A stretch of 64,000 nt of DNA from an uncultured Actinomycetes bacterium. GTDB lineage: Bacteria > Actinomycetota > Thermoleophilia > Gaiellales > JALYLC01. Each line of letters starts with the position of its first letter. The stretch's first letter is position 1. Position numbers and translations under genes: made by a program. Positions 2,451 through 49,836 of the stretch are shown here, piece by piece. The notes under the pieces were generated by a model. The model saw only the letters and a list, made by a program, of their open reading frames with translations, was not told the origin of the DNA and did not search any database. The stretch is from NCBI GenBank assembly GCA_963743275.1, contig CAVUPB010000011.1:72153-136152 (forward strand), in the 5' to 3' direction.

Positions 2451-2675
2451 TGCATCGTCTCCTCGTCGAGTGCCTCGATCGTACGCCAGGCCCTGCCCGC
2501 GTGTAGTCTGGCGAGCGGTTGACGCTGCCTTGCGGCCGATTCTGCTGCTCTTCCCGGGCCTGGGTGCATCGACTCGCAGTCGGGGCGCTGGCGTTGGGTC
2601 AAGTTCTCCGCTGCCGGTGACGTGCGCGCCTCGCCGGTGGCGAAGGACGGCCTGGATCGGAGCGATCGGAACGGC

Positions 2676-3074
2676 ATGCAGGGCGAGACCGGCGGACCGC
2701 GCGACCCGGGCGGCGACAGCGCCGCGACGCCCGACAACGCGCGCGTCCTGCGCAACGTCTCCCGGGCGATCGTGGAGCTCTACAAGGAGCAGTTCGGGCG
2801 CGGCCCCGAGACGGTGAGCTCGCGCTTCGCCGGGTCCGACACGCTCATCACGCTGCTCGGCAACACGCTCACGCCGGTCGAGCGCACGATGCGCGACATG
2901 GGCGAGGGCCAGCGCCTGCGCGACATCCGCATGATGTTCCAGCACGCCACGGAGGCGAAGTTCCGGGCCATCGTCGAGGAGCTGACCGGGCGTCAGGTGG
3001 TCGCCTTCATGAGCGGCATCGACGTCGCGCGCGACGTCTCCTGCGAGGTCTTCACGCTCGCGCCCGAAGTCTGA
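2676..3074 (+). CDS. DUF2294 (MpsC-like) domain protein, a divergent paralog of 2025..2450
   Basis: ORF 2622..3074. Sequence VLRNVSRAIVELYKEQFGRGPETVSSRFAGSDTLITLLGNTLTPVERTM parallels the neighbouring gene. The start could be 2622 or ATG 2676. Confidence 0.65.
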   Translation: MQGETGGPRDPGGDSAATPDNARVLRNVSRAIVELYKEQFGRGPETVSSRFAGSDTLITLLGNTLTPVERTMRDMGEGQRLRDIRMMFQHATEAKFRAIVEELTGRQVVAFMSGIDVARDVSCEVFTLAPEV

Positions 3075-3122: not shown

Positions 3123-3467
3123 TTGAATAGGCCGGTGCAGGACGCGCCCGCCGACAAGCACGCCGACCTGCGCTCGCTGCTCGAAGCGTCGGTGCGATCC
3201 GGTGACGCCCGGGTCGCGCGCGCGGATCGCGAGCTCGCCTTCGACCGGCCCGAGTACCTCGCCGGCGCGCGCGGCCGCTACTGCGCGCAGGTCGCCCGCG
3301 ACGCCAACGGCGTCGGCGACGCCGACGTGGCGGCCCTGCGCGCCGAGGGTCTCGGCGACGTCGAGATCTTCGAGTACACCGTCGCCGCGGCTGTCGGCCA
3401 GGCGAGCCGCCAGCTGACCTCCGCGCTCGCGGCGCTCGGCGCGGCCCCGAGGAGCGAGCCGTCGTGA
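3123..3467 (+). CDS. Hypothetical protein, weakly CMD/AhpD-like
   Basis: 114-aa ORF. Its stop overlaps the next start (ATGA at 3464-3467), suggesting translational coupling. Confidence 0.45.
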   Translation: MNRPVQDAPADKHADLRSLLEASVRSGDARVARADRELAFDRPEYLAGARGRYCAQVARDANGVGDADVAALRAEGLGDVEIFEYTVAAAVGQASRQLTSALAALGAAPRSEPS

Positions 3468-4042
3468 TGCGCCTGCCCGCCGTGACCCGCGGCGAGAAGC
3501 TCGGGCACCGCGTCACGTTCGCATTGATCCGCATCATGGAGCGGCGCCGCGCGCCCGACGTCGTGCGCACGCTGATGTTCCGGGGCGAGTTCTTCGGCTC
3601 GAAGATGATGTTCCACGAGGTGATGCGGGGCCCCTCGCCGTGGAGCGTCGGCGAGCGCGAGCTCTTCGCGGCCTTCGTGTCCAAGCAGAACGAGTGCGAG
3701 TACTGACTGCGCGCCCACGGCGCGGTCGCGTCGCGCGTGTACGGCAGCCAGGTGCTCGACGACCGCCTCGCGCAGCTCGACGACGCCGACATCTCTGCGG
3801 AGGCGCGCGCCATGCTCCCGCTGCTCGAGAAGTTCACGCTGGAGCACGATGCGCTCGGCGAGGGCGACTTCGCCGGCGTGCGGGCGCTCGGCGTGAGCGA
3901 CGAGGCGATCACCGACGCCTTCTACGTCGCCTACCTCTTCAACATCATCAACCGCATGGCCGACGCCCTGCGCTTCGAGGTCGGCTCGCAGGACGACTTC
4001 GACAAGTCGACGAAGTCGCTGCTCGGCCGCGGCTACCGCTAA
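3464..4042 (+). CDS. AhpD/carboxymuconolactone-decarboxylase-like protein interrupted by an in-frame TGA (3704-3706) at the second Cys position of its CxxC motif. It is either a candidate selenoprotein or a nonsense pseudogene.
   Basis: ORFs 3464..3706 and 3737..4042 are in the same frame. Read-through gives ...FVSKQNECEY[TGA]LRAHGAVASRVYGSQ..., i.e. the family motif N-x-C-x-Y-C-x-x-x-H. The combined length of about 192 aa is typical for the family. Confidence 0.6.
3716..3739 (+). other. Candidate SECIS-like stem-loop 10 nt after the in-frame TGA
   Basis: CACGGCGCG-GTCGCGT-CGCGCGTG: 8 bp with one bulge and a 7-nt loop starting GU. GC-rich hairpins are common by chance in this DNA. Confidence 0.2.
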
Positions 4043-4067
4043 GGCGGCGGCGGCCACAGACCCGGCG

Positions 4068-5393
4068 TCAGCCCCCCCGCTGTGCCGCGAGGAAGCCCCG
4101 GTACCAGGCGAAGCTCCCCTTGGGCGTGCGCTCGAGGCTGGGGTAGTCGACGTAGATGAGACCGAAACGCCGCGCGTAGCCTTCCGCCCACTCGAAGTTG
4201 TCGAGCAGCGACCACGCGAAGTAGCCCTCCACCGGCACGCCGAGGAGGATCGCCTGTCGCACGGCCTCGATGTGACCGGCCAGGTAGGCCTGGCGCTCCG
4301 GATCGGCGACGCGTCCGTCGGGGGCGCGGACGTCGCGAAATGCGGCGCCGTTCTCCGTGACCATGATCGCCGCCGGCGCATAGTCGCGGTCGATCCGGGC
4401 GAGCACGCTCGTCAGGCCACCCGGCGCCACCTCCCAGCCCATGTCCGTGTGCGGCGCGTCGTCCTGGTCGACGAGGCGGTGGCCTCCGCCGGGTGTCCGC
4501 TCGATGACCTCGCGGCGGTAGTAGTTGAGGCCGAGGAAGTCGATCGGCGCGGCGATCTCGGCCATGTCGCCGTCGAGGACGGGGGGCATGCCGGGTCCCA
4601 GGCGCTCGACCACATCGGCTGGGTAGGCGCCGCGGAAGACGGGGTCGAGGAACCAGCGGTGGCGCTCGCCGTCGGCCTCGAACGTCGCGGCCGCATCGGC
4701 GGCGGACGCCGTCGCGGGCCGCATGTCGCTCACGTCGATCGCGATGCCGACGCGCGCCGCGGGCGCCAGGCTGCGAATCGCCTCGGCCGCCCGTGCGTGC
4801 GCGAGCAGCAGGTGGTGGCCCGCCGCGAGCGCGTCGCGGGACGAGCGCCGGCCGGGCGCGTGCTCGCCGTTGCCGTAGCCGAGCCAGGCGGCCACCCAGG
4901 GCTCGTTGACCGTGATCCAGTGGCGCACGCGGTCGCCGAGACGCCCGGCCACCGCGCCGGCGAACTCGGCCAGGGCGTCGGCGGTGGCGCGCTCGGGCCA
5001 CCCGCCCGCGTCCTCGAGCGCGACCGGCAGATCCCAGTGGTAGAGGGTCAGCAGCGGCTCGATGCCGTTTGCGAGCAGCTCGTCGACGAGCCGGTCGTAG
5101 AAGTCGAGGCCGGCCGCGTTGACGCGGCCGCGGCCCTCGGGGAGCACGCGCGGCCATGCGACCGAGAACCGGAAGGCGGTCAGGCCGAGCTCGCGCATCA
5201 GCGCGATGTCCTGCGGGTAGCGGTGGTAGAAGTCGCACGCGATCGTGCCGTCGTCGCCGCCGCGCACCTTGCCGGCCGTGCGGCAGAAGCGGTCCCAGAT
5301 GCACTCGCCGCGCCCGTCCTCGGCGATCGCCCCCTCGACCTGATACGCAGCCGTGGCCGCTCCCCAGAGGAACCCCGGCGGGAACGTCTGCAC
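4068..5393 (-). CDS. GH1 beta-glucosidase
   Basis: FPPGFLWGAATAAYQVEGA, acid/base ITVNEPW and nucleophile VTENGAAF. The ORF track extends to TTG 5465, but 5411-5445 is AT-rich and looks noncoding, so GTG 5393 (VQTFPPGF...) is preferred. The start is uncertain. Confidence 0.85.
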   Translation of the reverse strand: MQTFPPGFLWGAATAAYQVEGAIAEDGRGECIWDRFCRTAGKVRGGDDGTIACDFYHRYPQDIALMRELGLTAFRFSVAWPRVLPEGRGRVNAAGLDFYDRLVDELLANGIEPLLTLYHWDLPVALEDAGGWPERATADALAEFAGAVAGRLGDRVRHWITVNEPWVAAWLGYGNGEHAPGRRSSRDALAAGHHLLLAHARAAEAIRSLAPAARVGIAIDVSDMRPATASAADAAATFEADGERHRWFLDPVFRGAYPADVVERLGPGMPPVLDGDMAEIAAPIDFLGLNYYRREVIERTPGGGHRLVDQDDAPHTDMGWEVAPGGLTSVLARIDRDYAPAAIMVTENGAAFRDVRAPDGRVADPERQAYLAGHIEAVRQAILLGVPVEGYFAWSLLDNFEWAEGYARRFGLIYVDYPSLERTPKGSFAWYRGFLAAQRGG

Positions 5394-21337: not shown

Positions 21338-21694
21338 ATGACCGACAACTACGACAGCACCGCGATCGACGCCCGGCCCGCCGCGCCCTCGCTCGACGAG
21401 CTCGGCCCGGCCGGGAGCGCGGAGGACGGCGACGACCTCACGCTCGTCCTCGACGTGCGCGTCGAGATCGCAGTCGAGATCGGCCGTGCGACCATGAGCA
21501 TCCGCGAGACGATGGCGCTCGCGCCGGGATCGGTCGTCGCGCTCAAGAAGCCCGCCGGAGAGGCCGTCGACCTGCTCGTCAACGGCAAGCGGATCGCGCG
21601 CGGCGAGGTCGTGACGATCGACGAGGAGTACGGCCTCCGCATCACCGAGCTCGTCGCACCCGCCCATGGCTTGGACGCCGGCCTCGCCGCCTGA
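21338..21694 (+). CDS. fliN: Flagellar motor switch protein FliN (SpoA domain)
   Basis: VRVEIAVEIGRATMSIRETMALAPGSVVALKKPAGEAVDLLVNGKRIARGEVVTIDEEYGLRITEL. Confidence 0.85.
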   Translation: MTDNYDSTAIDARPAAPSLDELGPAGSAEDGDDLTLVLDVRVEIAVEIGRATMSIRETMALAPGSVVALKKPAGEAVDLLVNGKRIARGEVVTIDEEYGLRITELVAPAHGLDAGLAA

Positions 21695-29232: not shown

Positions 29233-29475
29233 ATGCTCGTGATCACGCGCAAGTCCGGTGAGCAGATCTGTCTCGGCGACGACGTCACCATCACGGTGCT
29301 CGACGTCACCGGATCGACAGTGAGGCTCGGCATCGAGGCGCCGGCGGAGATCCCCATCTTCCGTGGGGAGATCTGGGCCGACGTCAAGGCCGAGAACCGG
29401 GCAGCGGCGAACGCGAGCGTCGACGCAATCCCCCCTGTCAAGAACCGCACGGATCCGGGCCCCTCCGGGGCCTGA
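29233..29475 (+). CDS. csrA: Carbon storage regulator CsrA (flagellin translational repressor type)
   Basis: MLVITRKSGEQICLGDDVTITVLDVTGSTVRLGIEAPAEIPIFRGEI. Confidence 0.95.
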   Translation: MLVITRKSGEQICLGDDVTITVLDVTGSTVRLGIEAPAEIPIFRGEIWADVKAENRAAANASVDAIPPVKNRTDPGPSGA

Positions 29476-29521
29476 GCCCGCCTTCATTTTCAGCTCATCC
29501 TCGGAAAGGACTGACGGTCCC

Positions 29522-30337
29522 ATGGGACTTCGCATCGAGACCAACATCGAAGCGATGGATGCGCATCGCAACTTGCTCGCCACGTCGACGAAGATCTCTC
29601 AGTCGATGTCGCGGCTCAGCTCCGGCTACCGCATCAACAAGGCGGCGGACGACGCCGCCGGCCTCGCGATCAGCGAGAAGCTGCAGACGCAGGTCGGCGG
29701 CCTCAACCAGGCGCAGCGCAACGCGCAGGACGCCGTCTCGCTCGTGCAGACGGCAGAGGGCTCGATGAGCGAGGTGCAGTCGATGCTGCAGCGCGTTCGC
29801 GACCTCGCCGTGCAGTACAACAACGGCACGCTGTCGGCCTCCGACAAGGCCTCGATCACGAACGAGGTCACGCAGCTCTGCGACGAGATCGCACGCATCG
29901 CCTCGCAGACGAAGTTCAACGGCATCTCGCTGCTCACCGGCGCCGGCGTCATCAGCTTCCAGATCGGCGCCAACGACGGCGAGACGATCAGCGTGTCGAC
30001 GCGCGACATGTTCGGCGCGAGCTCGACGTATGACGTCAACTCCGCGCTGTTCACCTTCGGCGCGACGGTCACGCTGGCCTCGATCGACGCGGCGATCGAC
30101 AACATCTCGACCGCGCGCTCGACGTTCGGCGCGGTGCAGAACCGCCTCGAGCACACGCTCAACAACCTCGCGATCTACTCGGAGAACCTGAGCGCCTCCG
30201 TGAGCCAGATCAAGGACGTCGACATGGCGGCCGAGATGGTGAACTTCACGAAGCTGCAGATCCTGCAGTCGGCCGGCACCTCGATGCTGGCGCAGGCGAA
30301 CAGCGCTCCGCAGTCCGTGCTCAAGCTGCTCGGCTGA
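29522..30337 (+). CDS. fliC: Flagellin (271 aa), copy 1
   Basis: N-terminal LSSGYRINKAADDAAGLAISEKL and C-terminal FGAVQNRLEHT...DMAAEMVNFTKLQILQSAGTSMLAQANSAPQSVLKLL. It follows the fliW-csrA-flagellin order seen in Bacillus. Confidence 0.95.
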   Translation: MGLRIETNIEAMDAHRNLLATSTKISQSMSRLSSGYRINKAADDAAGLAISEKLQTQVGGLNQAQRNAQDAVSLVQTAEGSMSEVQSMLQRVRDLAVQYNNGTLSASDKASITNEVTQLCDEIARIASQTKFNGISLLTGAGVISFQIGANDGETISVSTRDMFGASSTYDVNSALFTFGATVTLASIDAAIDNISTARSTFGAVQNRLEHTLNNLAIYSENLSASVSQIKDVDMAAEMVNFTKLQILQSAGTSMLAQANSAPQSVLKLLG

Positions 30338-39884: not shown

Positions 39885-40700
39885 TTAGCCGAGCAGCTTG
39901 AGCACGGACTGCGGAGCGCTGTTCGCCTGCGCCAGCATCGAGGTGCCGGCCGACTGCAGGATCTGCAGCTTCGTGAAGTTCACCATCTCGGCCGCCATGT
40001 CGACGTCCTTGATCTGGCTCACGGAGGCGCTCAGGTTCTCCGAGTAGTTGGCCAGGTTGGCGAGCGTGTGCTCGAGGCGGTTCTGCACGGCGCCGAAGGT
40101 CGAGCGCGCGGTCGAGATGTTGTTGATCGCGGCGTCGATCGAGGCCAGCGTCACCGTGGCGCCGAACGAGAAGAGCGCCGAGTTGACGTCGTAGGTGGCG
40201 TTGGCGCCGAACAGGTCGCGCGCCGAGACGCTGATCGTCTCGCCGTCGTTGGCACCGATCTGGAAGCTGATCGCGCCGGCGCCGGTGAGCAGCGAGATGC
40301 CGTTGAACTTCGTCTGCGAGGAGATCCGTGCGATCTCGTTGCAGAGCTGCCCGACCTCGTTCGTGATCGCGGCCTTGTCGGACGTCGACAGCGTGCCGTT
40401 GTTGTACTGCACGGCGAGGTCGCGAACGCGCTGCAGCATCGACTGCACCTCGCTCATCGAGCCCTCTGCCGTCTGCACGAGCGAGACGGCGTCCTGCGCG
40501 TTGCGCTGCGCCTGGTTGAGGCCGCCGACCTGCGACGAGAGCTTCTCGCTGATCGCGAGACCGGCGGCGTCGTCCGCCGCCTTGTTGATGCGGTAGCCCG
40601 AGCTCAGCCGAGACATCGACTGAGAGATCTTGCCCGACGTGGCGAGCAAGTTGCGATGCGCATCCATCGCATTGATGTTGGTCTGGACGCTGAGGGACAT
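39885..40700 (-). CDS. fliC: Flagellin (271 aa), copy 2, inverted relative to copy 1
   Basis: MSLSVQTNINAMDAHRNLL... By manual alignment it differs from copy 1 at about 22 of 271 residues. The 3' ~160 nt are identical at the DNA level. SD AAGGAGGAA. Confidence 0.95.
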   Translation of the reverse strand: MSLSVQTNINAMDAHRNLLATSGKISQSMSRLSSGYRINKAADDAAGLAISEKLSSQVGGLNQAQRNAQDAVSLVQTAEGSMSEVQSMLQRVRDLAVQYNNGTLSTSDKAAITNEVGQLCNEIARISSQTKFNGISLLTGAGAISFQIGANDGETISVSARDLFGANATYDVNSALFSFGATVTLASIDAAINNISTARSTFGAVQNRLEHTLANLANYSENLSASVSQIKDVDMAAEMVNFTKLQILQSAGTSMLAQANSAPQSVLKLLG

Positions 40701-40765
40701 GCTCTTCCTCCTTGAAGGGCGGTGTTCCCGTTCGGCCCACTCCCTGTGGGCCGGCCCTGGCGCCT

Positions 40766-40779
40766 CGCTATCCGTAGCG
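40766..40779 (-). promoter_or_regulatory. Candidate CsrA-binding hairpin in the fliC copy 2 leader
   Basis: CGCTA-CGGA-TAGCG presents GGA in the loop. A second GGA site lies in the SD AAGGAGGAA (about 40705-40715). Confidence 0.45.
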
Positions 40780-40797
40780 GGTACCTTGGCCGTCTTG

Positions 40798-40824
40798 TAT
40801 TCGGCAGGCAGCGCGCGGACTTTA
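40798..40824 (-). promoter_or_regulatory. Canonical sigma-28 promoter of fliC copy 2
   Basis: Minus strand TAAA-N15-GCCGAATA, followed by a 97-nt leader to the ATG. Confidence 0.75.
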
Positions 40825-41015
40825 GGAACTCCGATCAGATCTTTCTCGCGCGCTGCCACAGCGGCCACAGCGGCGCGCGGCGCGGGTCTCCGGGGGTCGG
40901 CTCGTTACGTTCTGCGCTGCTTCTGTCAATTGATCTTTGGGGACGGCGAACGCCGGCCATCCCAGCGTCGCGTCCGCTCGCACGATCGCCCGCCTACGAC
41001 CGAGGGAGGAATGCA

Positions 41016-41174: not shown

Positions 41175-41794
41175 GCCAGGCCATCACGTGTCTCGTCGCC
41201 GACGACCACCCCGCAGTCCTCGCCGCCGTGTGCCGTGCGCTCGAGCAGGAGGGGGACATCGAGGTCGTCAGCCGCGTCGCCGACGGCGAGCAGGCGCTCG
41301 CGCACATCAAGGCGCGGCGGCCGACGGTCGCGCTGCTCGATGTCCGCATGCCCGGCCTCTCCGGGATCGAGGTCGCCCGCCGTCTCGAGGAGAATCACCG
41401 CACCGGAGTGATCCTCTACACCGCGTACGGCGATCCGGCGCTCGTCGTCGAGGCCCTCGACGCGGGCGTCCGCGGCTTCGTCCTCAAACAGGCCCCCGTC
41501 GAGGACCTGCTGCGCGCGATCAGGCTGGTCGCGCTGGGATCGACCTACATCGACGCCGCCGTCGCGGGCGCGCTGGCGATGTCGGAGACGGCCGGGCTCC
41601 CGGTGCTCACGAAGCGCGAGCGCGATGTCCTGCGCCTGCTCGCCGAGGGCCTGCGCAACGAGGAGATCGGCGACCGGCTGTTCATCTCTCCGTTCACGGT
41701 GCGGAACCACGTCGAGACGGTCATGGCGAAGCTCGAGGCGAACAGCCGCGCCCACGCCGTGGCGACCGCGCTGCGCCAGGCGCTCATCACGTGA
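41171..41794 (+). CDS. NarL/LuxR-family response regulator (orphan)
   Basis: Receiver domain ITCLVADDHPAVL...VALLDVRMPGLSGIEV and HTH LTKRERDVLRLLAEGLRNEEIGDRLFISPFTVRNHV. The start was chosen by homology with its neighbour. The ORF track starts at 41111. Confidence 0.9.
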   Translation: MSQAITCLVADDHPAVLAAVCRALEQEGDIEVVSRVADGEQALAHIKARRPTVALLDVRMPGLSGIEVARRLEENHRTGVILYTAYGDPALVVEALDAGVRGFVLKQAPVEDLLRAIRLVALGSTYIDAAVAGALAMSETAGLPVLTKRERDVLRLLAEGLRNEEIGDRLFISPFTVRNHVETVMAKLEANSRAHAVATALRQALIT

Positions 41795-42605: not shown

Positions 42606-43793
42606 GTGTCGAGTCCCTTCCTCGCGCTCGCCTTCCTCGACGAGATCGCCGCCGCACCCGATCTGCTGGCCGAGTACGCGCAGCTCTTCGAAGGTCGCGG
42701 CGACGTGTCGCTCGTCGTGCTCGCGCCGGGCTTCGAGGGCGCCGATCTCGAGCGCGAGCTGCGCCCGCTCGCCGAGGCGATCGGTCTCGACCGCGACGGC
42801 AGCGCGGACGTGGTGGTCGTCACCCAGGCCGGAGCGGAGGACGAGCTCAGCGAGCGCGCGGGCGCCGTCTACACGCGCATCGCCAGGGGCGGGCGGCTCG
42901 ACGGACTGCCGCGGGCGAGCAGCGCCGGCGCGCTCGCCCGTCTCGTCGAGAGCGCTCGGGTGGACGCCGCCGGTGCGCAGGAGGGGAATCCGAGCTACCT
43001 CCTCGTCACCTACGACAGCTGCCGCCTCGACGTCCTGCAGGCGGCCCATACGCCGGTGCTCGACTCGTATGCCCGGATCGTCGCCGCGCAGACACCCGCG
43101 AACTTCACGTATGCGGCGCATCAGGCGTTCTTCGTCGGGATGCTCCCGAACGCGATCGAGCCGCTGCCGTACCACAACCGTTTCGTCAGCCAGTTGCTCG
43201 CGCTCGCAGCCGTCGGCGAGATCCAGGTCGTCGACAAGGCCTGTGCGCATCGCGTGAGCAGCGACGTCAACCTCGTCGCCGGCCTCTCCGCCGCCGGCTA
43301 TCAGACCGTCGGCGCCGGTGCGATGAACTGGTTCAAGCAGAAGGCGCTGACCCAGTGGTTCGAGAACTTCGCCTACACCGGCACCGACGCGCGCGCCCAG
43401 ATCGACTTCCTCCGGCGCGAGATCGACCCGCGCCGTCCGTTCTTCGGCTTCGTCAACTTCGGCGAGACCCATGACCCGTTCGACTTCGAGGGCAAGCCGG
43501 ACCGGTGCCCGATCGAGGTGCAGTCGCGTCTGATCGAGTGGCCGCCGGTGCAGAACGGCGTGCCGGTCGGCCGCGACTCCGAGGCCTGGGCGCACCAGCG
43601 GCGCTCCGCCGAGTTCCTCGACGCGCAGCTGCCGGCGCTGTTCGAAGGGCTCCCGGGCCACACGATCGTGATCCTCTGCGGCGACCATGGCGAGGCCTTC
43701 GGCGAGGACGGCTACTGGGGCCACGGCGTCAACCATCCCACCGTGCTGACCGTGCCGCTCGCGATCTTCCGGCTCGACCGCGCGCCGCTGTAG
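42606..43793 (+). CDS. Alkaline-phosphatase/sulfatase-superfamily enzyme with an N-terminal ~95-aa module shared with the 21770 methyltransferase
   Basis: N-terminal PFLALAFLDEIAAAPDLLAEYAQLFEGRGDVSLVVLAPG...GLDRDGSADVVVVT. Catalytic part YLLVTYDSCRLDVL...TPANFTYAAHQAFFVG...VILCGDHGEAFGEDGYWGHG (sulfatase-like metal and nucleophile motifs). Confidence 0.7.
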   Translation: MSSPFLALAFLDEIAAAPDLLAEYAQLFEGRGDVSLVVLAPGFEGADLERELRPLAEAIGLDRDGSADVVVVTQAGAEDELSERAGAVYTRIARGGRLDGLPRASSAGALARLVESARVDAAGAQEGNPSYLLVTYDSCRLDVLQAAHTPVLDSYARIVAAQTPANFTYAAHQAFFVGMLPNAIEPLPYHNRFVSQLLALAAVGEIQVVDKACAHRVSSDVNLVAGLSAAGYQTVGAGAMNWFKQKALTQWFENFAYTGTDARAQIDFLRREIDPRRPFFGFVNFGETHDPFDFEGKPDRCPIEVQSRLIEWPPVQNGVPVGRDSEAWAHQRRSAEFLDAQLPALFEGLPGHTIVILCGDHGEAFGEDGYWGHGVNHPTVLTVPLAIFRLDRAPL

Positions 43794-43802
43794 CCCCCGC
43801 AC

Positions 43803-43831
43803 GCAAAAACGGGGTCTGACCCCATCTTTGC
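43803..43831. repeat. Palindromic repeat unit (cluster 3)
   Basis: GCAAAAACGGGGTCTGACCCCATCTTTGC, with imperfect arms and the same GGGGTC-W-GACCCC core. Confidence 0.8.
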
Positions 43832-43923
43832 GCGGCCCTAAAGAGCCCCCGGCGGAGGCCGACTACGTGGGCGTCCCCGGGCCGCGTGGCGGCCGCGTCC
43901 GCATTCGAGAGGACATTCCTCCG

Positions 43924-46900
43924 TTGACTGTGCCGATCGTCTCTGCCCCCTTCGCCGGCCTCGACGAGATCGCCGAGCCGTATGCGCTCCTGCTCGCGCC
44001 CGGCGCCGAGGTGAGCGCCGAGGCGATCGCGGAGCTGCGGGCGACGCTCGACGCGAATCCCGCCGCGGGCCTCGTCGGGGCCCGGCTCGCCGGGCCCGAC
44101 GGCCTGCTCCGGCAGGCCGGCGGCATCGTCGCGAGCGACGGCTCGATCTGGAGCTACGGCCACGGCCGGCAGGGCGACGACCCGCGCTACCTGCACGCGC
44201 GGGAGGTCGACTGGGTCTCGACGGACTGCGCGCTCGTGCGCGTCGCCGCGCTGCGCGCCGCCGGGGGCTTCGATCCCGCGCTCGCCGGCGAGGAGCGCGA
44301 CGCCGATCTCGCGTTCGCCCTGCGCCGGGCCGGCTATGCGGTCGTCTACCAGCCGTTCGCCGAGGCGGTCGTCCACGACCAGGCCGCCGAGACCGCCGAC
44401 GCCGCGGCCACCTGCGAGCTCAGCGTCATCATGCCGACCCACGATCGGGCGGAGCTGCTGCGCGACGCGCTCGAGAGCCTCGTGGGCCAGAGCGTCGCGC
44501 GCGACCGCTTCGAGGTCGTCGTCGTCGACGACGGCTCGACCGACGGCACCGAGCAGGTCTGCGCCGAGCTCTCCGAGCGGCTCGACCTCCGCTACGTCCG
44601 GATCGCGAGCTCGGGCATCGCCGCGGCCAAGAATGCCGGCATTCGCGCGGCGCGCGGCGCCATCCTGCTGTTCCTGGACGACGACGACGTGGCCGATCCG
44701 GGCCTGCTCGCGGAGCACCTCCGCGTGCACGCCGAGCGGCCCGAGGAGCACGTCGCGGTGCTCGGCTACACGACGTGGGGCGACTGGCTCGACGTGACGC
44801 CGCTCATGCACTTCGTGACCGACGTCGGCCACTACCTGTTCGCCTACAGCGACCTCGAAGACGGCCAGTCGCTGGACCACACCTACTTCTGGGGCGGCCG
44901 GAGCTCGTGCAAGCGCTCGTTCCTCCTGCGGCGCGGGCTCTTCAACCCGGCCTTCACGTTCGGCTCGGAGGACATCGAGCTCGGCTACCGGCTCTCCCGC
45001 TACGGACTCGAGGTCGTCTACGCCGCCGGCGCGATCAGCCGGATGAACCGGTCCGTCACGCTCGACGAGTTCTGCCGGCGCGTCGAGCGCCAGGGCCGTT
45101 CGCAGCTCGTCTTCTCGCGCCTGCACGCCGACCCCGGCGTCCAGACGTGGTGCGGCGTGGAGGCCGCCGCGGAGCGCTGGGCTGCGGTCGCGGCGGATCT
45201 CGACGCCCGTCTCGCTCGCGCCCGCGAGATCGAGGGTGCGCGCAGCGAGGAGTTCCACGCGCTGCTGTGGGGCATCTTCGACGCGCTGAAGCTGAAGGGG
45301 ATCGCCGAGGCTGCGAGCGAGGACGAGCAGGTCGCGCGGCCCGCGGCGCTGCGCCACGAGGCGCCGGGTGCCGCGCTGCGCGCCAAGTGGGCCGAGGAGC
45401 TGCGCGCGCAGACGGCGCCCGAGCACGAGCTGATGCGGGCGGCCGCCAACCGCGCGCCCGGCAGCCGGATCTTCGTCGCCGATCTGCTGCTCCCCGCCTA
45501 CACGCGCGCCTCCGGTGCGCGACGGATGTTCGAGTTGCTGCGCCTGCTCGCCGCCGCGGGTCACGCCGTCACGTTCGTCGCCGCCGACCCCTCCGACGGG
45601 CCGCGCTTCGTCGACGAGCTGCGCCGGCTGGGGATCGAGACCTACGCCGGCGACCCCGAGCGGGCGCTGCTGCTCGGGCGCTCCGTCGAGGCGCCGCACC
45701 TCGATCTCGGCGAGCTCCTGGCCGGGAGCGACTTCGATCTCGCGCTGCTCAGCCTGTGGTACGTGGCCGAGCGCTACCTCGAGCCCGTGCGGCGCTACGC
45801 GCCACGGGCGCGGATCGTGGTCGACACGGTCGACGTGCACTACGTCCGCGAGCAGCGCCATGCCGAGCTCGTGGGCGACCCGCTGCTCGCGCGCGGGGCA
45901 GCCGAGACGCGCCTGCGCGAGCTCGGCGTCTACGCGCAGGCCGACGCGCTCGTCGCCGTCACCGACAACGATGCCGACGGGATCCGCGCCGCGCTTCCCG
46001 AGGCCGAGATCCACATCGTCGGGAACATCCACGACGTCGCCGAGGCGTCGCCCGGGCCGGCGGGGCGCCAGGGCCTGCTCTTCGTCGGCAACTTCCTGCA
46101 TCGCCCGAACCCCGACGCGGTGATCTGGCTGCAGCGCGAGGTCATGCCGCTCGTCTGGGACGAGGAGCCGGATGCGACGCTGACGATCGCCGGGTTCCGG
46201 CCGACGGCCGAGGTACGGGAGCTCGCCGGCCCGCGCGTCGACGTCGTCGGCCACGTGCCCGACATGCAGCCGCTGCTCGACGCGCACCGCATCTCGGTCG
46301 CACCGCTGCGCTTCGGCGCAGGGATCAAGGGCAAGGTGTGCGAGGCGCTCGCGGCGGGACTCCCCGTGGTCACCACCGGCGTCGGGAGCGAGGGGATGGG
46401 CCTCGCCGAGGGCCACGACGTGCTGCTCGAGGCCGACGACGCGGAGGCGTTCGCCGCCGCCATCCTGCGGCTGCTCCGCGACGACGCGCTGTGGGCGCGG
46501 CTTGCCGCCGGCGGCCGTGCCTATGTCGAGCAGCAGCTCAGCTCGCAGGCGGCCGCGAAGCGGCTCGAGCGGCTGGTCGAGAGCGAGCGGGCCCGCAAGG
46601 CCGACGCGGAGCTGACATCGATCGTCGTGCTCGCGCTCGACAACGCCGAGCTGACCGGCGAGTGCCTCGACTCGATCGCCGCGCACACCGCCGAGCCCTA
46701 CGAGATCGTGCTCGTCGACAACGGCTCGGGCCCGGAGGCCGCGGATCTCTTCGCGCGCTGGGCGCGCGAGCGCGACGACCTGCGCGTGGTGCGCAACGCG
46801 GTCAACCTCGGCTTCGCCGGCGGCAACAACCAGGGACTCGCCCTCGCCCGCGGTGGCGCCGTCGTGCTGCTCAACAACGACACCGTCGTCACCGACGGCT

Positions 46901-49836
46901 GGCTCGGGCGCATGCGCGCGGTGCTCGAGCGCGAGGCCGGCGTCGGAATCGTCGGCCCGGTCACGAATCGGATCTCGGGCCCGCAACAGGTCGACGACGC
47001 CGTCTACGAGACCCCGCAGGAGCTTCACGCGTACGCGGCGGAGCGAGCGCTCGCACATGCCGGCCAGACCGCCGAGACGCTGCGCGTCGTCGGGTTCTGC
47101 ATGCTGATCAGGCGCGAGGTCGTCGATTGCATCGGCGGGCTCGACGAGCGCTTCGGCGCCGGCAACTTCGAGGACGACGACTTCTCCCTGCGCGCCGCGG
47201 CCCTGGGGTTCGGGGCCCGGATCGCGCTCGACGCGTTCGTCCACCACGCCGGCAGCCAGACGTTCGCCGCGGCGGGCATCGACCACCACCAGGCGATGCT
47301 GCGCAACTGGACGCTCTTCAAGGAGAAGTGGTCGATCCCGGCGGCGACGTCGATCGCCGAGCCCTACGCCGTCTCGCGTGAGACGGTGCTGGCCCGCTCG
47401 TGCGTCGTGCCGCTGCCCGCGATCGGGCGCTTCCACCGGCCCGAGGGGAACCTCTGGCGCGAGGCCGACGACAGTCGCGTCCTCGCCGCGGCCGCCGATG
47501 CGATCGAGGTCGGCCGCGTCGAGGCGCTCGCCGATGCCTTCGCCGAGGCCGCGCGATGGCTCGACCCGCACCGCCGCTACCAGACCCGCCGCCGCCTCGC
47601 CGAGCTGGTGCTCGACGCGCCCAAGCGGGGCGAGAGCGACTGGATGACGCTGTTCGCCGCCGGCGCGGAGGAGCTGACCGCCGTGCTCGAGGAGGAGCCG
47701 CGCGAGCCGATCCTGCTGAACTATCTCGGCGTCCTCCTCTACGAGCTCGGTGACCTGCGCACCGCGGAGTCCCTGTTCCGGGCTGCGTTCCGGCTCGACC
47801 CGGCGCTCGGACAGGCCCGGGAGAACCTCGAGGCCGCACGGCGGCTGCGCCGCGCGCACACGCTCGGCGCCCCGCGCGGCGCGTTGGCCGCGCGGGTGCG
47901 GGCGCTCGCGCCGCGCGCGCGTCGCCTGGCGGCTGCGGCGAGGCCGGTGGAGGGGTTGACGGTGTCGCTGTGCATGATCGTGAAGGACGAGGAGGAGTTG
48001 TTGCCGGCCTGTCTGGAGGCGGCGCGGGGTGCGGTCGACGAGATCGTGGTGGTCGATACGGGTTCGTCGGATCGCACGGTGGAGATCGCGGAGTCGTTTG
48101 GTGCGAAGGTCGTGTCGTTTCCGTGGAACGGGTCGTTTGCGGATGCGCGGAATGTCTCGATCGAGCATGCGACGGGCGATTGGATCATGTATCTGGACGC
48201 CGACGAGCAGCTTGCTGCGGGCTCGGCCGCAGAGTTGCGCTCGCTGCTCGGCAAGACCTGGCGCGAGGCCTTCAATCTCGTCGAGACGAACTTCACCGGC
48301 GGCGAGGGATCGGGGGAGTCGGTCGCCCACCTCGCGCTGCGCGTCTGGCGCAACCGGCCGGAGTACCGCTTCGCGGGCCGCATCCACGAGCAGAAGACGC
48401 AGTCGATGCCGAACTACCTGCCCGAGCGGTTCGAGACCACGACCGTGCAGATCTCCCACTACGGCTACCTCAAGAGCCGGATCTCGGCGAAGGAGAAGTC
48501 GCAGCGCAACATCGAGCTGCTCGAGGCGCAGGTCGAGGAGCGGGGGCTGAACGCCTTCTCCGCGCTCAACCTCGGCACCGAGTGGATGCTCGTCGGCGAG
48601 CAGGCGAAGGCGCGGGAGTACCTGGAGCAGTCGTGGACGATGCTGCGACGGCAGCCGGCGTGGCAGCGCCAGCCATGGGCCCCGATGCTGCTCTCGCGGC
48701 TCGCGACCGTCCGCCGCGAGCTCGGCGACCTCGCGGGCGTGCGCGCCCTCGTCGCCGAGGGCCTCGCGATCTATCCGGATCACACCGACCTCGTCTTCAA
48801 GCTCGCGCTCTGCGCCGTCGACGAGCGCGACTGGGCGGGCGCCGAGGTGCATGCCCGCCGCTGCCTCGCGCTCGGAGATGCGCCCGCCGCCTATTCGGGC
48901 AACGTCGGCGGCGGAACGTACCTCGCAATGGCGCTGCTCGGCCAGCTGAGCGAGGTCCAGGGGCGCCTCGACGAGGCCGAGGCGCACTACCGCCAGGCGC
49001 TCGCGGCGCATCCCTCGTTCGTCGCGCCCGCGCTGCCGCTCGCGACGCTCATGTTCCGCCGCGGCGCGGCGCCGGCCGAGGTCGAGGCGGCGCTGCCGGC
49101 CGGCCGGACGAGCGCGCTCCTGCTCGCGGCGAGCGCCTGCTTCGAGGCCGGCCATGCCCCCGAGGCGGCGGCGTGGTTCGCCCGCGTGCTCGACGAGCAG
49201 CCCGAAAACGGCGCCGCGCGCGTCGGGCTCGTCGAGTCCCTGCTCGCCGAGCGCCGCTACGACGAGGCGGTCGCCGAGGCGCGCCTGCGGGGCGACGGCT
49301 CGGCCGTCGCCACGAAGCTCGCCGCCGCCGAGCTCTTCATCCACGGGCTGCGGGCCGACGCGGCAGCGCTCGGAGCCGCACTCGAGACGTTCGACGGGAC
49401 CGTGCCCGAGGCCGCGCTCTTCGGCGCCTGGCACGGCCTGCTCGCCGGCGCTCCCGTACCCGATGTGCTGCCGGCAGAGCTGTTCGGCACGGTCGTCACG
49501 ATGCTCGAGGCGCTCCTGCGCGTCTCGGAGTTCCAGGCCTTCGAGACCCTGCACGGGCTGTTCACGCGCATCGACGTCGCTCCCGCGCTGCGCTCCGACG
49601 TCCTCGCGACGGTCTACTTCCGGCGCGGCTATCTGGATTCGGCGGCGGACGAATGGATCGCCTCGGTCGAGGCGGAGCCGAGCGCCGGCGCGCTGCTCGG
49701 CCTCGCGCACGTCGCGCTCGCCAAGGACCTGCCCGACGACGCCGCCGTGCTGCTGGACGAGGCGCTGGAGCTCGAGCCCGGCAACACGGACGCCTCGGCC
49801 CTGCGCGACGCGCTCGCCGACAAGGTGGCGGCGTGA
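43924..49836 (+). CDS. Giant multidomain glycosyltransferase (about 1970-2000 aa): GT-A fragment, GT2, GT4/GT1, GT2, helical linker, GT2 and a TPR-like tail
   Basis: LSVIMPTHDR...VVVDDGSTDGT...LFLDDDD (GT2). FVGNF...GIKGKVCEALAAGLPVVTT (GT4). SIVVLALDN...VLVDNGS...LLNNDTVV...GNFEDDD (GT2). SLCMIVKDEEELLP...VVVDTGSSD...MYLDADE (GT2). The start is uncertain: the ORF track gives 43828 inside the repeat, with TTG 43924 or GTG 43930 preferred. Confidence 0.8.
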   Translation: MTVPIVSAPFAGLDEIAEPYALLLAPGAEVSAEAIAELRATLDANPAAGLVGARLAGPDGLLRQAGGIVASDGSIWSYGHGRQGDDPRYLHAREVDWVSTDCALVRVAALRAAGGFDPALAGEERDADLAFALRRAGYAVVYQPFAEAVVHDQAAETADAAATCELSVIMPTHDRAELLRDALESLVGQSVARDRFEVVVVDDGSTDGTEQVCAELSERLDLRYVRIASSGIAAAKNAGIRAARGAILLFLDDDDVADPGLLAEHLRVHAERPEEHVAVLGYTTWGDWLDVTPLMHFVTDVGHYLFAYSDLEDGQSLDHTYFWGGRSSCKRSFLLRRGLFNPAFTFGSEDIELGYRLSRYGLEVVYAAGAISRMNRSVTLDEFCRRVERQGRSQLVFSRLHADPGVQTWCGVEAAAERWAAVAADLDARLARAREIEGARSEEFHALLWGIFDALKLKGIAEAASEDEQVARPAALRHEAPGAALRAKWAEELRAQTAPEHELMRAAANRAPGSRIFVADLLLPAYTRASGARRMFELLRLLAAAGHAVTFVAADPSDGPRFVDELRRLGIETYAGDPERALLLGRSVEAPHLDLGELLAGSDFDLALLSLWYVAERYLEPVRRYAPRARIVVDTVDVHYVREQRHAELVGDPLLARGAAETRLRELGVYAQADALVAVTDNDADGIRAALPEAEIHIVGNIHDVAEASPGPAGRQGLLFVGNFLHRPNPDAVIWLQREVMPLVWDEEPDATLTIAGFRPTAEVRELAGPRVDVVGHVPDMQPLLDAHRISVAPLRFGAGIKGKVCEALAAGLPVVTTGVGSEGMGLAEGHDVLLEADDAEAFAAAILRLLRDDALWARLAAGGRAYVEQQLSSQAAAKRLERLVESERARKADAELTSIVVLALDNAELTGECLDSIAAHTAEPYEIVLVDNGSGPEAADLFARWARERDDLRVVRNAVNLGFAGGNNQGLALARGGAVVLLNNDTVVTDGWLGRMRAVLEREAGVGIVGPVTNRISGPQQVDDAVYETPQELHAYAAERALAHAGQTAETLRVVGFCMLIRREVVDCIGGLDERFGAGNFEDDDFSLRAAALGFGARIALDAFVHHAGSQTFAAAGIDHHQAMLRNWTLFKEKWSIPAATSIAEPYAVSRETVLARSCVVPLPAIGRFHRPEGNLWREADDSRVLAAAADAIEVGRVEALADAFAEAARWLDPHRRYQTRRRLAELVLDAPKRGESDWMTLFAAGAEELTAVLEEEPREPILLNYLGVLLYELGDLRTAESLFRAAFRLDPALGQARENLEAARRLRRAHTLGAPRGALAARVRALAPRARRLAAAARPVEGLTVSLCMIVKDEEELLPACLEAARGAVDEIVVVDTGSSDRTVEIAESFGAKVVSFPWNGSFADARNVSIEHATGDWIMYLDADEQLAAGSAAELRSLLGKTWREAFNLVETNFTGGEGSGESVAHLALRVWRNRPEYRFAGRIHEQKTQSMPNYLPERFETTTVQISHYGYLKSRISAKEKSQRNIELLEAQVEERGLNAFSALNLGTEWMLVGEQAKAREYLEQSWTMLRRQPAWQRQPWAPMLLSRLATVRRELGDLAGVRALVAEGLAIYPDHTDLVFKLALCAVDERDWAGAEVHARRCLALGDAPAAYSGNVGGGTYLAMALLGQLSEVQGRLDEAEAHYRQALAAHPSFVAPALPLATLMFRRGAAPAEVEAALPAGRTSALLLAASACFEAGHAPEAAAWFARVLDEQPENGAARVGLVESLLAERRYDEAVAEARLRGDGSAVATKLAAAELFIHGLRADAAALGAALETFDGTVPEAALFGAWHGLLAGAPVPDVLPAELFGTVVTMLEALLRVSEFQAFETLHGLFTRIDVAPALRSDVLATVYFRRGYLDSAADEWIASVEAEPSAGALLGLAHVALAKDLPDDAAVLLDEALELEPGNTDASALRDALADKVAA
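47920..48273 (+). repeat. 354-bp block 100% identical to 51219-51572 (copy 1)
   Basis: Out-of-frame ORFs 47970.. and 51269.. (and 48029.. and 51328..) start with identical peptides at a constant offset of 3299 nt. The 5' boundary is sharp. Confidence 0.9.

What the first reader, a model, noticed from the sequence alone, without database searches (positions are those of the whole stretch)
3464..4042. In-frame TGA at the second Cys of the CxxC motif of an AhpD/CMD-like protein: selenocysteine candidate or nonsense mutation
ORFs 3464..3706 and 3737..4042 share a frame and are separated only by TGA (3704-3706) and ten sense codons. Read-through gives ...SKQNECEY-TGA-LRAHG..., which is the AhpD/carboxymuconolactone-decarboxylase redox motif C-x-x-C-x-x-x-H with TGA in place of the second Cys.

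Cys-to-Sec replacement at redox-active CxxC sites is the classic signature of bacterial selenoproteins, and AhpD-like selenoproteins have been described. A bulged 8-bp hairpin with a GU-starting 7-nt loop lies at 3716-3739, within the usual SECIS distance window. However, TGC to TGA is also a single-step nonsense mutation, and GC-rich hairpins are frequent in this DNA.
Basis: partly seen in the sequence, partly recalled or inferred. Interest (0 to 1): 0.65.

Follow-up and report, generated by a model that had tools for sequence, protein, structure and literature searches.

The report
AhpD-like selenoprotein gene with SECIS
The in-frame TGA is almost certainly a real selenocysteine codon in a member of the known AhpD-like (CxxU) selenoprotein family, followed by a conserved recoding hairpin, so this is a gene that annotation would wrongly cut in two, not a mutation or a new kind of system.

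Summary
Window 3467-4042 (+) is one reading frame with a single in-frame TGA (3704-3706) at the second Cys position of E65-x11-C77-x-Y79-U80-x3-H84, the AhpD proton-relay motif. With Cys substituted for the TGA, the product scores above NCBIfam's cut-off for TIGR01926, "peroxidase-related enzyme". A 2026 review lists that model as the AhpD-like CxxU selenoprotein family, first described in 2005.

All 83 homologous loci first fetched, from at least eight bacterial lineages, carry TGA at the same codon, and so does a 84th, L084. Next to it lies a nearly invariant 18-nt stretch that forms a 6-bp hairpin with a GGUC loop (window 3718-3733), 17 nt after the TGA. This hairpin meets all four published bacterial SECIS criteria. 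It shows compensatory changes at three pairs, and synonymous sites are frozen only there. Three Cys-coding homologues lack it.

A translationally coupled partner gene of about 110 aa (3135-3467), with no family of its own in Pfam or NCBIfam, precedes the selenoprotein gene in 79 of 84 loci.

Nonsense mutation is rejected. One thing is untested: whether this genome carries selA, selB, selC and selD. None was found in the parts of the 64-kb window examined. Verdict: a new member of a known kind, of low to moderate interest.

The parts
3467..4042 (+). Selenoprotein gene. It encodes an AhpD-like / peroxidase-related enzyme of 191 aa including Sec80. ATG 3467 is the likely start (GTG 3464 is the alternative), and the stop is TAA 4040-4042.
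   Evidence: Translation is. TIGR01926 scores 92.2 bits against a cut-off of 81.8. Pfam CMD scores 24.8 against 23. Homologues are 40-72% identical over the full length. The best solved relative is PDB 6K40, an AhpD-like protein, at E=6.7e-29. GC3 is 0.98 downstream of the TGA.
3704..3706 (+). TGA, read as selenocysteine (U80), at the second Cys position of the CxxC motif.
   Evidence: TGA is at the aligned codon in 84 of 84 sequences and in L084. Cys-form homologues have TGC or TGT here.
3659..3718 (+). Active-site segment: E65 (3659-3661), C77 (TGC 3695-3697), Y79 (3701-3703), U80 and H84 (CAC 3716-3718). This is the AhpD proton-relay spacing E-x11-C-x-[H/Y]-C-x3-H.
   Evidence: E65, C77 and H84 are invariant in alignments A1 and A2. 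The spacing equals Glu118/Cys130/His132/Cys133/His137 of M. tuberculosis AhpD and Glu36/Cys48/Tyr50/Cys51/His55 of PA0269 (PMC3141380).
3718..3733 (+). Bacterial SECIS core. A 6-bp stem (3718-3723 with 3728-3733) carries the apical loop GGUC (3724-3727). The loop starts 17 nt after the TGA.
   Evidence: RNAalifold predicts exactly this helix on 84 sequences. It is 99.8% paired, 3 of 6 pairs show changes on both sides (16 cells), and 0 of 500 shuffles reach this. The hairpin alone has dG -8.1 kcal/mol. Synonymous-site entropy is 0-0.47 bits at codons +4..+9, against 1.2-1.5 bits at invariant G/A/V codons upstream. Cys forms lack it. It meets the bSECIS model of PMC13188914, Fig. 2A.
3135..3467 (+). 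Upstream partner gene of about 110 aa. The start is GTG 3135 or TTG 3123. Its stop, TGA 3465-3467, overlaps ATG 3467 by 1 nt. It is a CxxC-less relative of the C-terminal helices of the selenoprotein.
   Evidence: An ORF ends at the selenoprotein start in 79 of 84 loci, with a 1-nt overlap in 46 and a 4-nt overlap in 22. tblastn detects it in 71 of 85 loci; one of these hits (L077) lies about 2.5 kb away on the other strand. hhalign of the partner profile against the selenoprotein profile gives 91% probability and E=1e-6 to residues 116-171. It has only sub-threshold TIGR01926 and CMD matches and no family of its own.
3450..3454 (+). AGGAG, a possible ribosome-binding site 12 nt before ATG 3467. 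Low confidence.
   Evidence: Read directly from the sequence. Not tested.

Best explanation
Window 3467-4042 encodes a 191-residue AhpD-like thiol/selenol oxidoreductase of the TIGR01926 / COG2128 'peroxidase-related enzyme' family. Codon 80 (UGA, 3704-3706) is decoded as selenocysteine.

Recoding (inferred). During translation the mRNA hairpin at 3718-3733 (6-bp stem, GGUC loop, 17 nt after the UGA) is bound by SelB carrying GTP and Sec-tRNA(Sec). SelB delivers selenocysteine to the UGA in place of release factor 2. This step is inferred from the hairpin's fit to the bacterial SECIS model and from its conservation.

Catalysis (inferred). In the protein, Sec80 takes the place of the second cysteine in the relay E65...C77-x-Y79-U80-x3-H84. 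There a selenolate would be the nucleophile and would form a selenenylsulfide with Cys77 while reducing a peroxide or a partner protein's oxidised cysteine. This step is inferred by homology with M. tuberculosis AhpD, PA0269 and DR1765. The substrate and the reductant are unknown.

Partner (association shown, complex inferred). The gene is translationally coupled to an upstream gene of about 110 aa that resembles the C-terminal helices of the same fold without the redox motif. It probably supplies a second subunit. The association of the two genes is shown. The complex is inferred.
For: Shown here:
- The frame, the TGA and the motif.
- Family membership: TIGR01926 92.2 bits against a cut-off of 81.8.
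- TGA at the homologous codon in 84 of 84 sequences (83 fetched loci plus the window), from Myxococcota, Gemmatimonadota, Actinomycetota, Desulfobacterales, Opitutales/Moanabacter, Vicinamibacterales, Binatia and Sericytochromatia. L084, fetched later, also has it.
- Seven database proteins stop exactly at C-x-[FY] because gene callers stopped at that TGA. The apparent Trp in three JGI proteins: the one checked (P0005, L084) is TGA translated with code 4.
- Cys forms exist with TGC or TGT.
- RNAalifold independently predicts the hairpin, with compensatory changes C-G to U-A, G-C to U-A and G-U to C-G.
- Synonymous sites are frozen only within the hairpin codons.
- The hairpin is lost in three Cys forms, including one from 73% GC DNA.
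- All four bSECIS model constraints are met.
- The 111 codons after the TGA are open, have GC3 0.98 and are 66-71% identical to the nearest homologues, much as for the upstream part at 72-76%.
- TGA is also the commonest ordinary stop in this window, so the code is not reassigned.

From the literature: AhpD-like COG2128/TIGR01926 CxxU is an established selenoprotein family (PMC1088965, PMC2398784, PMC1794560, PMC13188914).
Against: - The Sec-decoding genes (selA, selB, selC, selD) could not be looked for in this organism. The window has no tRNA gene, and no sel gene was found among the roughly 40 ORFs scanned. A few stretches of the window were not scanned.
- There is no protein-level evidence.
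- The single-sequence fold of 3695-3770 is not more stable than shuffles (z=0.62), so the RNA evidence is entirely comparative.
- Some covariation involves synonymous changes that both lower GC (CAC to CAU with UCG to UCA) and may stem from few independent events.
- No Rfam family matches the hairpin.
Confidence: 0.92

Rival explanations
1. The gene is a selenoprotein gene by descent, perhaps acquired horizontally as a two-gene cassette. The present host cannot decode UGA as Sec, so only a truncated 79-aa peptide is made. The gene would then be a non-functional or decaying relic.
For: Sec machinery was not found in the window. No neighbouring gene is shared with any of the other loci. The nearest homologues are in unrelated taxa, a Gaiellales MAG and Myxococcota MAGs. 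Both points are consistent with horizontal transfer.
Against: The 111 codons after the TGA have no stop or frameshift. Their GC3 of 0.98 matches the host's own extreme codon bias. They keep 66-71% identity to homologues. The SECIS matches the consensus at every position. The partner gene and its 1-nt overlap are intact. A 64-kb window is about 1% of a genome, so the absence of sel genes from it carries almost no weight.
Confidence: 0.04
2. The TGA is a recent nonsense mutation (TGC to TGA) or a sequencing error in an ordinary Cys-type AhpD-like gene.
For: TGC to TGA is a single-base change. GC-rich hairpins are common in this DNA.
Against: TGA is at the same codon in all 83 homologous loci examined across many phyla. 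The closest relatives are all TGA forms. A covarying SECIS follows the TGA, and Cys forms lack it.
Confidence: 0.01
3. The UGA is read through without selenium, by Cys or Trp insertion from near-cognate tRNAs, or by Cys-tRNA(Sec). This would give a CxxC or CxxW protein. The hairpin would act only as a general read-through stimulator.
For: Cys insertion at Sec codons occurs under selenium limitation in some systems (own knowledge). No selenium-specific evidence was obtained here.
Against: The hairpin has the SelB-type features: a GGUC loop and 17-nt spacing, essentially as in E. coli fdhF (the fdhF sequence is from my own memory). If Cys were the intended residue, TGC would be simpler, and other members of the family do use it.
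Confidence: 0.02

Closest known systems
AhpD-like selenoprotein family (COG2128 / TIGR01926, CxxU motif), first described in the Sargasso Sea selenoproteome of Zhang, Fomenko and Gladyshev 2005 and called 'AhpD-like 1' in the GOS analysis of 2008
   Same: It matches the same HMM above its cut-off. It has the same CxxU motif, with Sec at the second Cys position, Cys-containing homologues, and a SECIS-like stem-loop directly after the UGA with G in a small apical loop (PMC1088965, PMC2398784, PMC13188914).
   Different: Nothing essential differs. This copy sits in a 72% GC, flagellated, probably soil-type bacterium, whereas the family was first described from marine plankton. The papers I read do not mention a conserved upstream partner gene or the near-invariant 18-nt SECIS.
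DR1765 of Deinococcus radiodurans (PDB 6K40) and the structural-genomics 'uncharacterized peroxidase-related proteins' 3C1L, 2OYO, 2PFX and 2PRR
   Same: They are the closest solved relatives, at E=7e-29 to 1e-18. They share the CxxC-x3-H helix and the same C-terminal helices. Loss of DR1765 sensitises cells to H2O2, and complementation depends on the CxxC cysteines (PMC8945050).
   Different: They have Cys, not Sec. Whether they have partner genes was not checked.
Mycobacterium tuberculosis AhpD (TIGR00777), the AhpC-reducing adaptor
   Same: It has the same five-residue proton-relay spacing, Glu118/Cys130/His132/Cys133/His137 against E65/C77/Y79/U80/H84 here (PMC3141380). The chemistry is probably of the same kind.
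   Different: TIGR00777 scores 12 bits against a cut-off of 192. No ahpC was found among the ORFs nearest the gene. The chain topology is different. This gene is not an orthologue.
E. coli fdhF SECIS, the reference bacterial SECIS
   Same: The hairpin lies directly 3' of the UGA, and the apical loop is GGUC. The loop occupies positions 21-24 here and 22-25 in fdhF, counted from the U of UGA (the fdhF sequence is from my own memory).
   Different: The conserved stem is shorter (6 bp). There is a G-U pair rather than a bulged U. The lower stem is not conserved between homologues.
Avi_7169/Avi_7170 pair (TIGR04030 alkylhydroperoxidase domain protein with TIGR04029 CMD domain protein)
   Same: This is also a two-gene arrangement of an AhpD-type protein with a small CMD-related partner (own knowledge of the TIGRFAM descriptions). 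The selenoprotein scores 35 bits on TIGR04030.
   Different: That score is far below the cut-off of 233 bits. The partner here does not match TIGR04029. The resemblance is in architecture only.

Membership tests
AhpD-like selenoprotein (TIGR01926 / COG2128, CxxU) | The protein matches the TIGR01926 model above its curated cut-off. | tested here: met
   92.2 bits against a cut-off of 81.8, covering residues 13-170 and model positions 12-173 of 178, with C substituted for U.
AhpD-like selenoprotein (TIGR01926 / COG2128, CxxU) | An in-frame TGA aligns with the second Cys of the CxxC motif of Cys-containing homologues (a Sec/Cys pair). | tested here: met
   Alignment A1 shows X80 against an invariant C in the Cys forms. 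Their codons are TGC, TGC and TGT in L085-L087.
AhpD-like selenoprotein (TIGR01926 / COG2128, CxxU) | TGA-containing orthologues occur in other organisms. | tested here: met
   83 of 83 loci have TGA at the codon, and so does L084.
AhpD-like selenoprotein (TIGR01926 / COG2128, CxxU) | Sec-decoding machinery (selA, selB, selC/tRNA-Sec, selD) is present in the same genome. | not testable with these tools
   Only 64 kb is available. It has no tRNA gene and no sel gene among the ORFs scanned.
AhpD-like selenoprotein (TIGR01926 / COG2128, CxxU) | Selenium is incorporated into the full-length product. | not testable with these tools
   This needs 75Se labelling or mass spectrometry.
Bacterial SECIS (bSECIS consensus model; PMC13188914 Fig. 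2A) | An apical loop of 3-9 nt on an upper stem of 4-16 bp. | tested here: met
   The loop is 4 nt (GGUC) and the stem is 6 bp, at 3718-3733.
Bacterial SECIS (bSECIS consensus model; PMC13188914 Fig. 2A) | G in one of the first two loop positions, usually followed by G or U. | tested here: met
   The loop is G-G-U-C in 81 of 84 sequences and A-G-U-U in 3. G and U at loop positions 2 and 3 are invariant.
Bacterial SECIS (bSECIS consensus model; PMC13188914 Fig. 2A) | A spacing of 16-37 nt between the UGA and the apical loop. | tested here: met
   17 nt (3707-3723) lie between the TGA and the loop. The spacing is the same in all 84 sequences, because alignment A3 has no gaps.
Bacterial SECIS (bSECIS consensus model; PMC13188914 Fig. 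2A) | A minimum free energy of -7.5 kcal/mol or lower. | tested here: met
   -8.1 kcal/mol for the 16-nt core alone, and -20.2 with the window-specific lower stem.
Bacterial SECIS (bSECIS consensus model; PMC13188914 Fig. 2A) | Binding by SelB and selenium-dependent read-through. | not testable with these tools
   This needs a reporter or binding assay.
AhpD/CMD-fold thiol oxidoreductases (proton relay E-x11-C-x-x-C-x3-H) | The five relay positions are present at the canonical spacing. | tested here: met
   E65, C77, Y79, U80 and H84 are present. E65, C77 and H84 are invariant in A1 and A2. The spacing is as in MtAhpD and PA0269.
AhpD/CMD-fold thiol oxidoreductases (proton relay E-x11-C-x-x-C-x3-H) | An all-helical AhpD fold. 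| tested here: inconclusive
   The fold is supported only by sequence homology to solved structures (6K40 at E=6.7e-29, and 3C1L, 2OYO, 2PFX, 2PRR). No structure was predicted.
Canonical AhpD (TIGR00777), partner of AhpC | A match to TIGR00777 above its cut-off, and linkage to ahpC. | tested here: not met
   12 bits against a cut-off of 191.95. The neighbours identified are an MpsC-domain protein, a methyltransferase, a GH1 beta-glucosidase and a LacI-type regulator. The small ORFs between 781 and 2519 matched no family. No peroxiredoxin was found.
NF041238 AhpD-related CFYUT (seleno)protein | A match above its cut-off. | tested here: not met
   29.6 bits against a cut-off of 175.

The most novel reading that the evidence does not exclude
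The AhpD-like CxxU selenoprotein may work not as a stand-alone enzyme but as the catalytic half of an obligate two-subunit module. It is almost always preceded by a translationally coupled protein of about 110 aa, which has no family of its own in Pfam or NCBIfam and is a CxxC-less copy of its own C-terminal helices. The Cys forms keep this partner as well.

The cassette, together with an 18-nt SECIS that is nearly identical across at least eight phyla, may spread by horizontal transfer as a self-contained unit. The SECIS would then be unusually 'universal', readable by SelB proteins of very different bacteria.
Probability: 0.4. Interest if true: 0.4.

Novelty: new member of a known kind. Interest (0 to 1): 0.28.

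Why it matters
For annotation, this gene would be split or truncated by standard gene callers. The databases already hold truncated products, code-4 "Trp" products and chimeric products of its relatives. It should be annotated as one selenoprotein gene.

For the organism, it predicts a Sec-decoding system (selA/B/C/D) and a selenium requirement in a high-GC, flagellated bacterium.

More generally, the 84-sequence set gives an unusually clean SECIS for a family whose recoding element has been shown only as single predicted folds. It has a fixed 17-nt spacing, a GGUC loop, compensatory changes and frozen synonymous sites. The set also reveals a conserved partner gene that could guide the first biochemical study of these uncharacterised peroxidase-related selenoproteins. 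None of this changes current understanding of selenoproteins.

Tried and rejected
- **Single-sequence folding of 3695-3770.** Not more stable than shuffles (z=0.62), so it says nothing in 72% GC DNA.
Tested on the alignment: 50% paired, equal to shuffles. Rejected in favour of 3718-3733.
- **Rfam.** No match at gathering thresholds over the whole window. At E up to 10 on 3640-3800 there were only two chance snoRNA-model hits.
- **Exact-sequence look-up of the truncated 79-aa product.** Not on record. The FliF look-up found only a 3-kb contig without DNA, so the source organism was not identified.
- **tRNA-Sec near the gene.** None in the window or in 60 related loci.
- **Sel genes in the window.** None among about 40 ORFs scanned. 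A few stretches were not scanned.
- **Conserved neighbourhood beyond the two-gene cassette.** tblastn of eight neighbouring window proteins against all loci gave no hit.
- **Other in-frame-TGA candidates in the window.** The pairs split at 21692-21694, 41792-41794 and 3072-3074 are separate, complete genes.
- **'Trp' forms and a 313-aa 'fusion' protein among the homologues.** P0005, the one checked, is TGA translated with genetic code 4. P0002 and P0006 are assumed to be the same.
- **dN/dS between the window and its three nearest homologues.** Compatible with constraint on both halves, but not decisive, because synonymous sites are compressed by extreme GC3.
- **Errors.** One search used the wrong frame for the partner and was repeated. 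One search failed on bad coordinates.
Full report
**1. The observation**

Reading 3300-4200 and translating 3464-4042 confirms a single open frame interrupted only by TGA at 3704-3706. The translation is ...FVSKQNECEY*LRAHGAVASRVYG..., and the frame ends at TAA 4040-4042. Homologues begin MRL..., so the real start is most likely ATG 3467, giving 191 residues. The window is 68-74% GC throughout. TGA is also the commonest ordinary stop codon of its high-GC3 ORFs, so the genetic code is not reassigned.

**2. What the protein is**

With Cys placed at the TGA, the product matches Pfam CMD (24.8 bits against a cut-off of 23). It also matches NCBIfam TIGR01926, "peroxidase-related enzyme" (92.2 bits against 81.8). 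It falls far below the cut-offs of three related models:
- canonical AhpD, TIGR00777: 12 bits against 192;
- the CFYUT AhpD-related selenoprotein, NF041238: 30 against 175;
- TIGR04030: 35 against 233.

The closest solved structures are the AhpD-like protein DR1765 (PDB 6K40, E=6.7e-29) and four structural-genomics "uncharacterized peroxidase-related proteins". The residues E65, C77, Y79, [TGA]80 and H84 reproduce the spacing of the AhpD proton relay. That relay is Glu118/Cys130/His132/Cys133/His137 in M. tuberculosis AhpD and Glu36/Cys48/Tyr50/Cys51/His55 in PA0269 (PMC3141380). E65, C77 and H84 are invariant in the alignments.

**3. Is the TGA a mutation?**

No. A protein search found full-length Cys-type homologues at 37-49% identity. 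It also found closer partial hits. Seven of these (P0044, 45, 46, 50, 51, 53, 55) end exactly at ...C-x-F, one residue before the second Cys. Their contigs show TGA there, with homologous sequence continuing in frame.

A scan of one genome per GTDB species found 409 relatives. The 80 best come from Myxococcota, Gemmatimonadota, Actinomycetota, Desulfobacterales, Opitutales/Moanabacter, Vicinamibacterales, Binatia, Sericytochromatia and others. All of them carry TGA at the aligned codon. Counting the window and the three metagenome loci, that is 84 of 84.

Three JGI proteins appeared to have Trp at the site, and one of them appeared to be a 313-aa fusion. On the DNA of that one (P0005, locus L084), both oddities are TGA codons translated with code 4. 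Cys forms are real: L085, L086 and L087 have TGC, TGC and TGT.

**4. The recoding signal**

The 18 nt CAC GGC GCG GUC GCG UCG (His-Gly-Ala-Val-Ala-Ser) that begin 9 nt after the TGA are nearly invariant at the nucleotide level.

*Structure and covariation.* RNAalifold on the 84 ungapped sequences predicts one helix, alignment columns 21-26 with 31-36. In the window this is 3718-3723 with 3728-3733, and the loop is GGUC at 3724-3727. Counting pairs for that structure gives:
- 99.8% of cells paired;
- three of six pairs with changes on both sides: C-G to U-A in 7 sequences, G-C to U-A in 4, and G-U to C-G in 5 (plus A-U in 2);
- 0 of 500 shuffles reaching the observed paired fraction or covariation score;
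- all slid registers much worse.

Two of the double changes also alter the amino acids (Gly-...-Ser to Ser-...-Glu) while keeping the pairs. This argues for selection on the RNA.

*Frozen synonymous sites.* Third-position entropy is 0-0.47 bits at codons +4 to +9. It is 1.2-1.5 bits at equally invariant Gly, Ala and Val codons upstream.

*Control.* The three Cys forms cannot form the helix. In that pairing their energies are -3.9, +7.0 and +7.0 kcal/mol, against -8.1 for the window. One of them comes from 73% GC DNA.

*Fit to the published model.* The element satisfies every constraint of the bacterial SECIS model (PMC13188914 Fig. 2A):
- a loop of 3-9 nt on a stem of 4-16 bp;
- G in the first two loop positions, followed by G or U;
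- 16-37 nt between the UGA and the loop (17 nt here);
- a free energy of -7.5 kcal/mol or lower.

*Specificity.* The motif TGA-N9-CAYGGCGCRGTYGCGTCR occurs once in the window (0.01 expected). It occurs once, at the Sec site, in 77 of 85 loci. The eight exceptions are seven covarying variants and one of the three Cys forms (L085). The other two Cys-form loci were fetched after this scan.

The single-sequence fold is not significant. Rfam has no matching family.

**5. Surroundings**

An ORF of about 110 aa (3135 or 3123 to 3467) ends in TGA overlapping ATG 3467 by one base. An equivalent ORF ends at the selenoprotein start in 79 of 84 loci, overlapping by 1 nt in 46 and by 4 nt in 22. The Cys forms have it too.

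A profile of 22 such partners aligns to the C-terminal helices (residues 116-171) of the selenoprotein profile, with 91% probability and E=1e-6. The partners have no CxxC motif. They reach no Pfam or NCBIfam family threshold. 14 of 22 give sub-threshold TIGR01926 matches.

No other neighbour is shared with any locus. In this window the cassette lies between an MpsC-domain gene and a methyltransferase gene on one side, and GH1 beta-glucosidase, LacI and oligopeptide ABC transporter genes on the other. A large flagellar cluster follows. The window has no tRNA gene, and none of the ORFs scanned is selA, selB or selD. The source genome is not among the GTDB representatives. The best matches, at 72% identity, are a Gaiellales MAG and a Myxococcaceae MAG.

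**6. Mechanism**

Shown:
- a conserved UGA;
- a covarying SECIS-type hairpin at fixed spacing;
- an intact and conserved downstream coding region, with GC3 0.98 and 66-71% identity to the nearest homologues, against 72-76% upstream;
- a translationally coupled partner gene.

Inferred:
- SelB with Sec-tRNA(Sec) binds the hairpin and inserts Sec at codon 80.
- Sec80 acts at the position of the second active-site Cys (Cys133 in MtAhpD) and cycles with Cys77 through a selenenylsulfide.
- The enzyme reduces a peroxide or an oxidised partner thiol.
- The partner protein assembles with it.

For the nearest characterised Cys relative, DR1765, loss of the gene sensitises cells to H2O2, and complementation depends on the CxxC cysteines (PMC8945050).

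**7. Comparison with what is known, and novelty**

"AhpD-like protein, COG2128, CxxU" was reported as a new selenoprotein family in the Sargasso Sea metagenome, with 27 sequences (PMC1088965). It was found again as "AhpD-like 1" in the GOS data, with 299 selenoproteins and 902 Cys homologues (PMC2398784). It was also found in sequenced genomes (PMC1794560). A 2026 review lists it under TIGR01926 (PMC13188914).

The window gene meets every testable defining feature of that family. It is therefore a new member of a known kind. Two things were not mentioned in the papers I read: the conserved, coupled partner gene, and the near-identity of the SECIS across phyla.

**8. Verdict**

- The TGA is a genuine selenocysteine codon of a known selenoprotein family: confidence about 0.92.
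- The main remaining uncertainty is the presence of the Sec machinery in this organism, and therefore present-day function.
- Interest is low to moderate (0.28).

Noticed in passing
window 14579-62927: Most of the window is a flagellar gene cluster in 72% GC DNA. It includes FliJ, rod/hook proteins, MotA, FliN, a FliK-like protein, FlgK, two flagellin genes (29324-30337 + and 39885-40904 -), FlhF, FlhA, FlhB, FliR, FliO, a sigma factor, FliD, FliF, FliI and FliM. The closest relatives of the selenoprotein cassette include Myxococcota MAGs. As far as I know (own knowledge) that group is not flagellated, so the source organism is probably something else.
   Followed up: partly
window 43750-49836 (+): A single 2028-aa ORF inside the flagellar cluster carries three GT2 domains, a GT1/GT4 domain and TPR repeats. 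It may be a flagellin-glycosylation enzyme.
   Followed up: no
window 21692-21694, 41792-41794, 3072-3074: Three other places have two high-GC3 ORFs in the same frame separated only by TGA: FliN and a methyltransferase, two NarL-type response regulators, and MpsC and the partner gene. For the first two, each half matches a complete family on its own, so they are ordinary adjacent genes and not selenoprotein candidates. The third was judged from the MpsC match and the partner gene's own start.
   Followed up: yes
L084 252-1193 (protein P0005); also P0002 and P0006: Public JGI protein entries show Trp at the Sec position, and one is a 313-aa 'fusion' of partner and selenoprotein. On the DNA of P0005, both features are TGA codons translated with genetic code 4. 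Other database entries are truncated at the TGA (P0044-P0055), or are chimeras of an unrelated N-terminus with the C-terminal half (P0042, P0047).
   Followed up: partly
L025 and L031, 10180-10261 (+): ARAGORN calls a 'tRNA-Val (cac)' that lies across the Sec codon and SECIS of the selenoprotein gene. It is probably a false positive caused by the GC-rich hairpins.
   Followed up: no
L002 about 10700 onward; L003 about 2560: In two ENA metagenome contigs the reading frame downstream of the TGA is lost or stops early, although the first residues (24 in L003, about 50 in L002) are homologous. These look like indel errors in the assemblies rather than real pseudogenes.
   Followed up: no
L036, L065, L076 (Opitutales / Moanabacter), loop of the SECIS: These three loci have AGUU instead of GGUC in the loop (GCA GUU instead of GCG GUC), a paired change at loop positions 1 and 4. 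It could mean that the first and last loop bases interact, as in the N1...N2 pair of the published bSECIS pattern.
   Followed up: no
window 2622-3074 (+): An MpsC-domain gene (Pfam PF10057, E=1e-17) ends about 50-60 nt upstream of the partner gene on the same strand, and may be co-transcribed with the cassette in this genome. It is not linked to the cassette in any other locus.
   Followed up: partly
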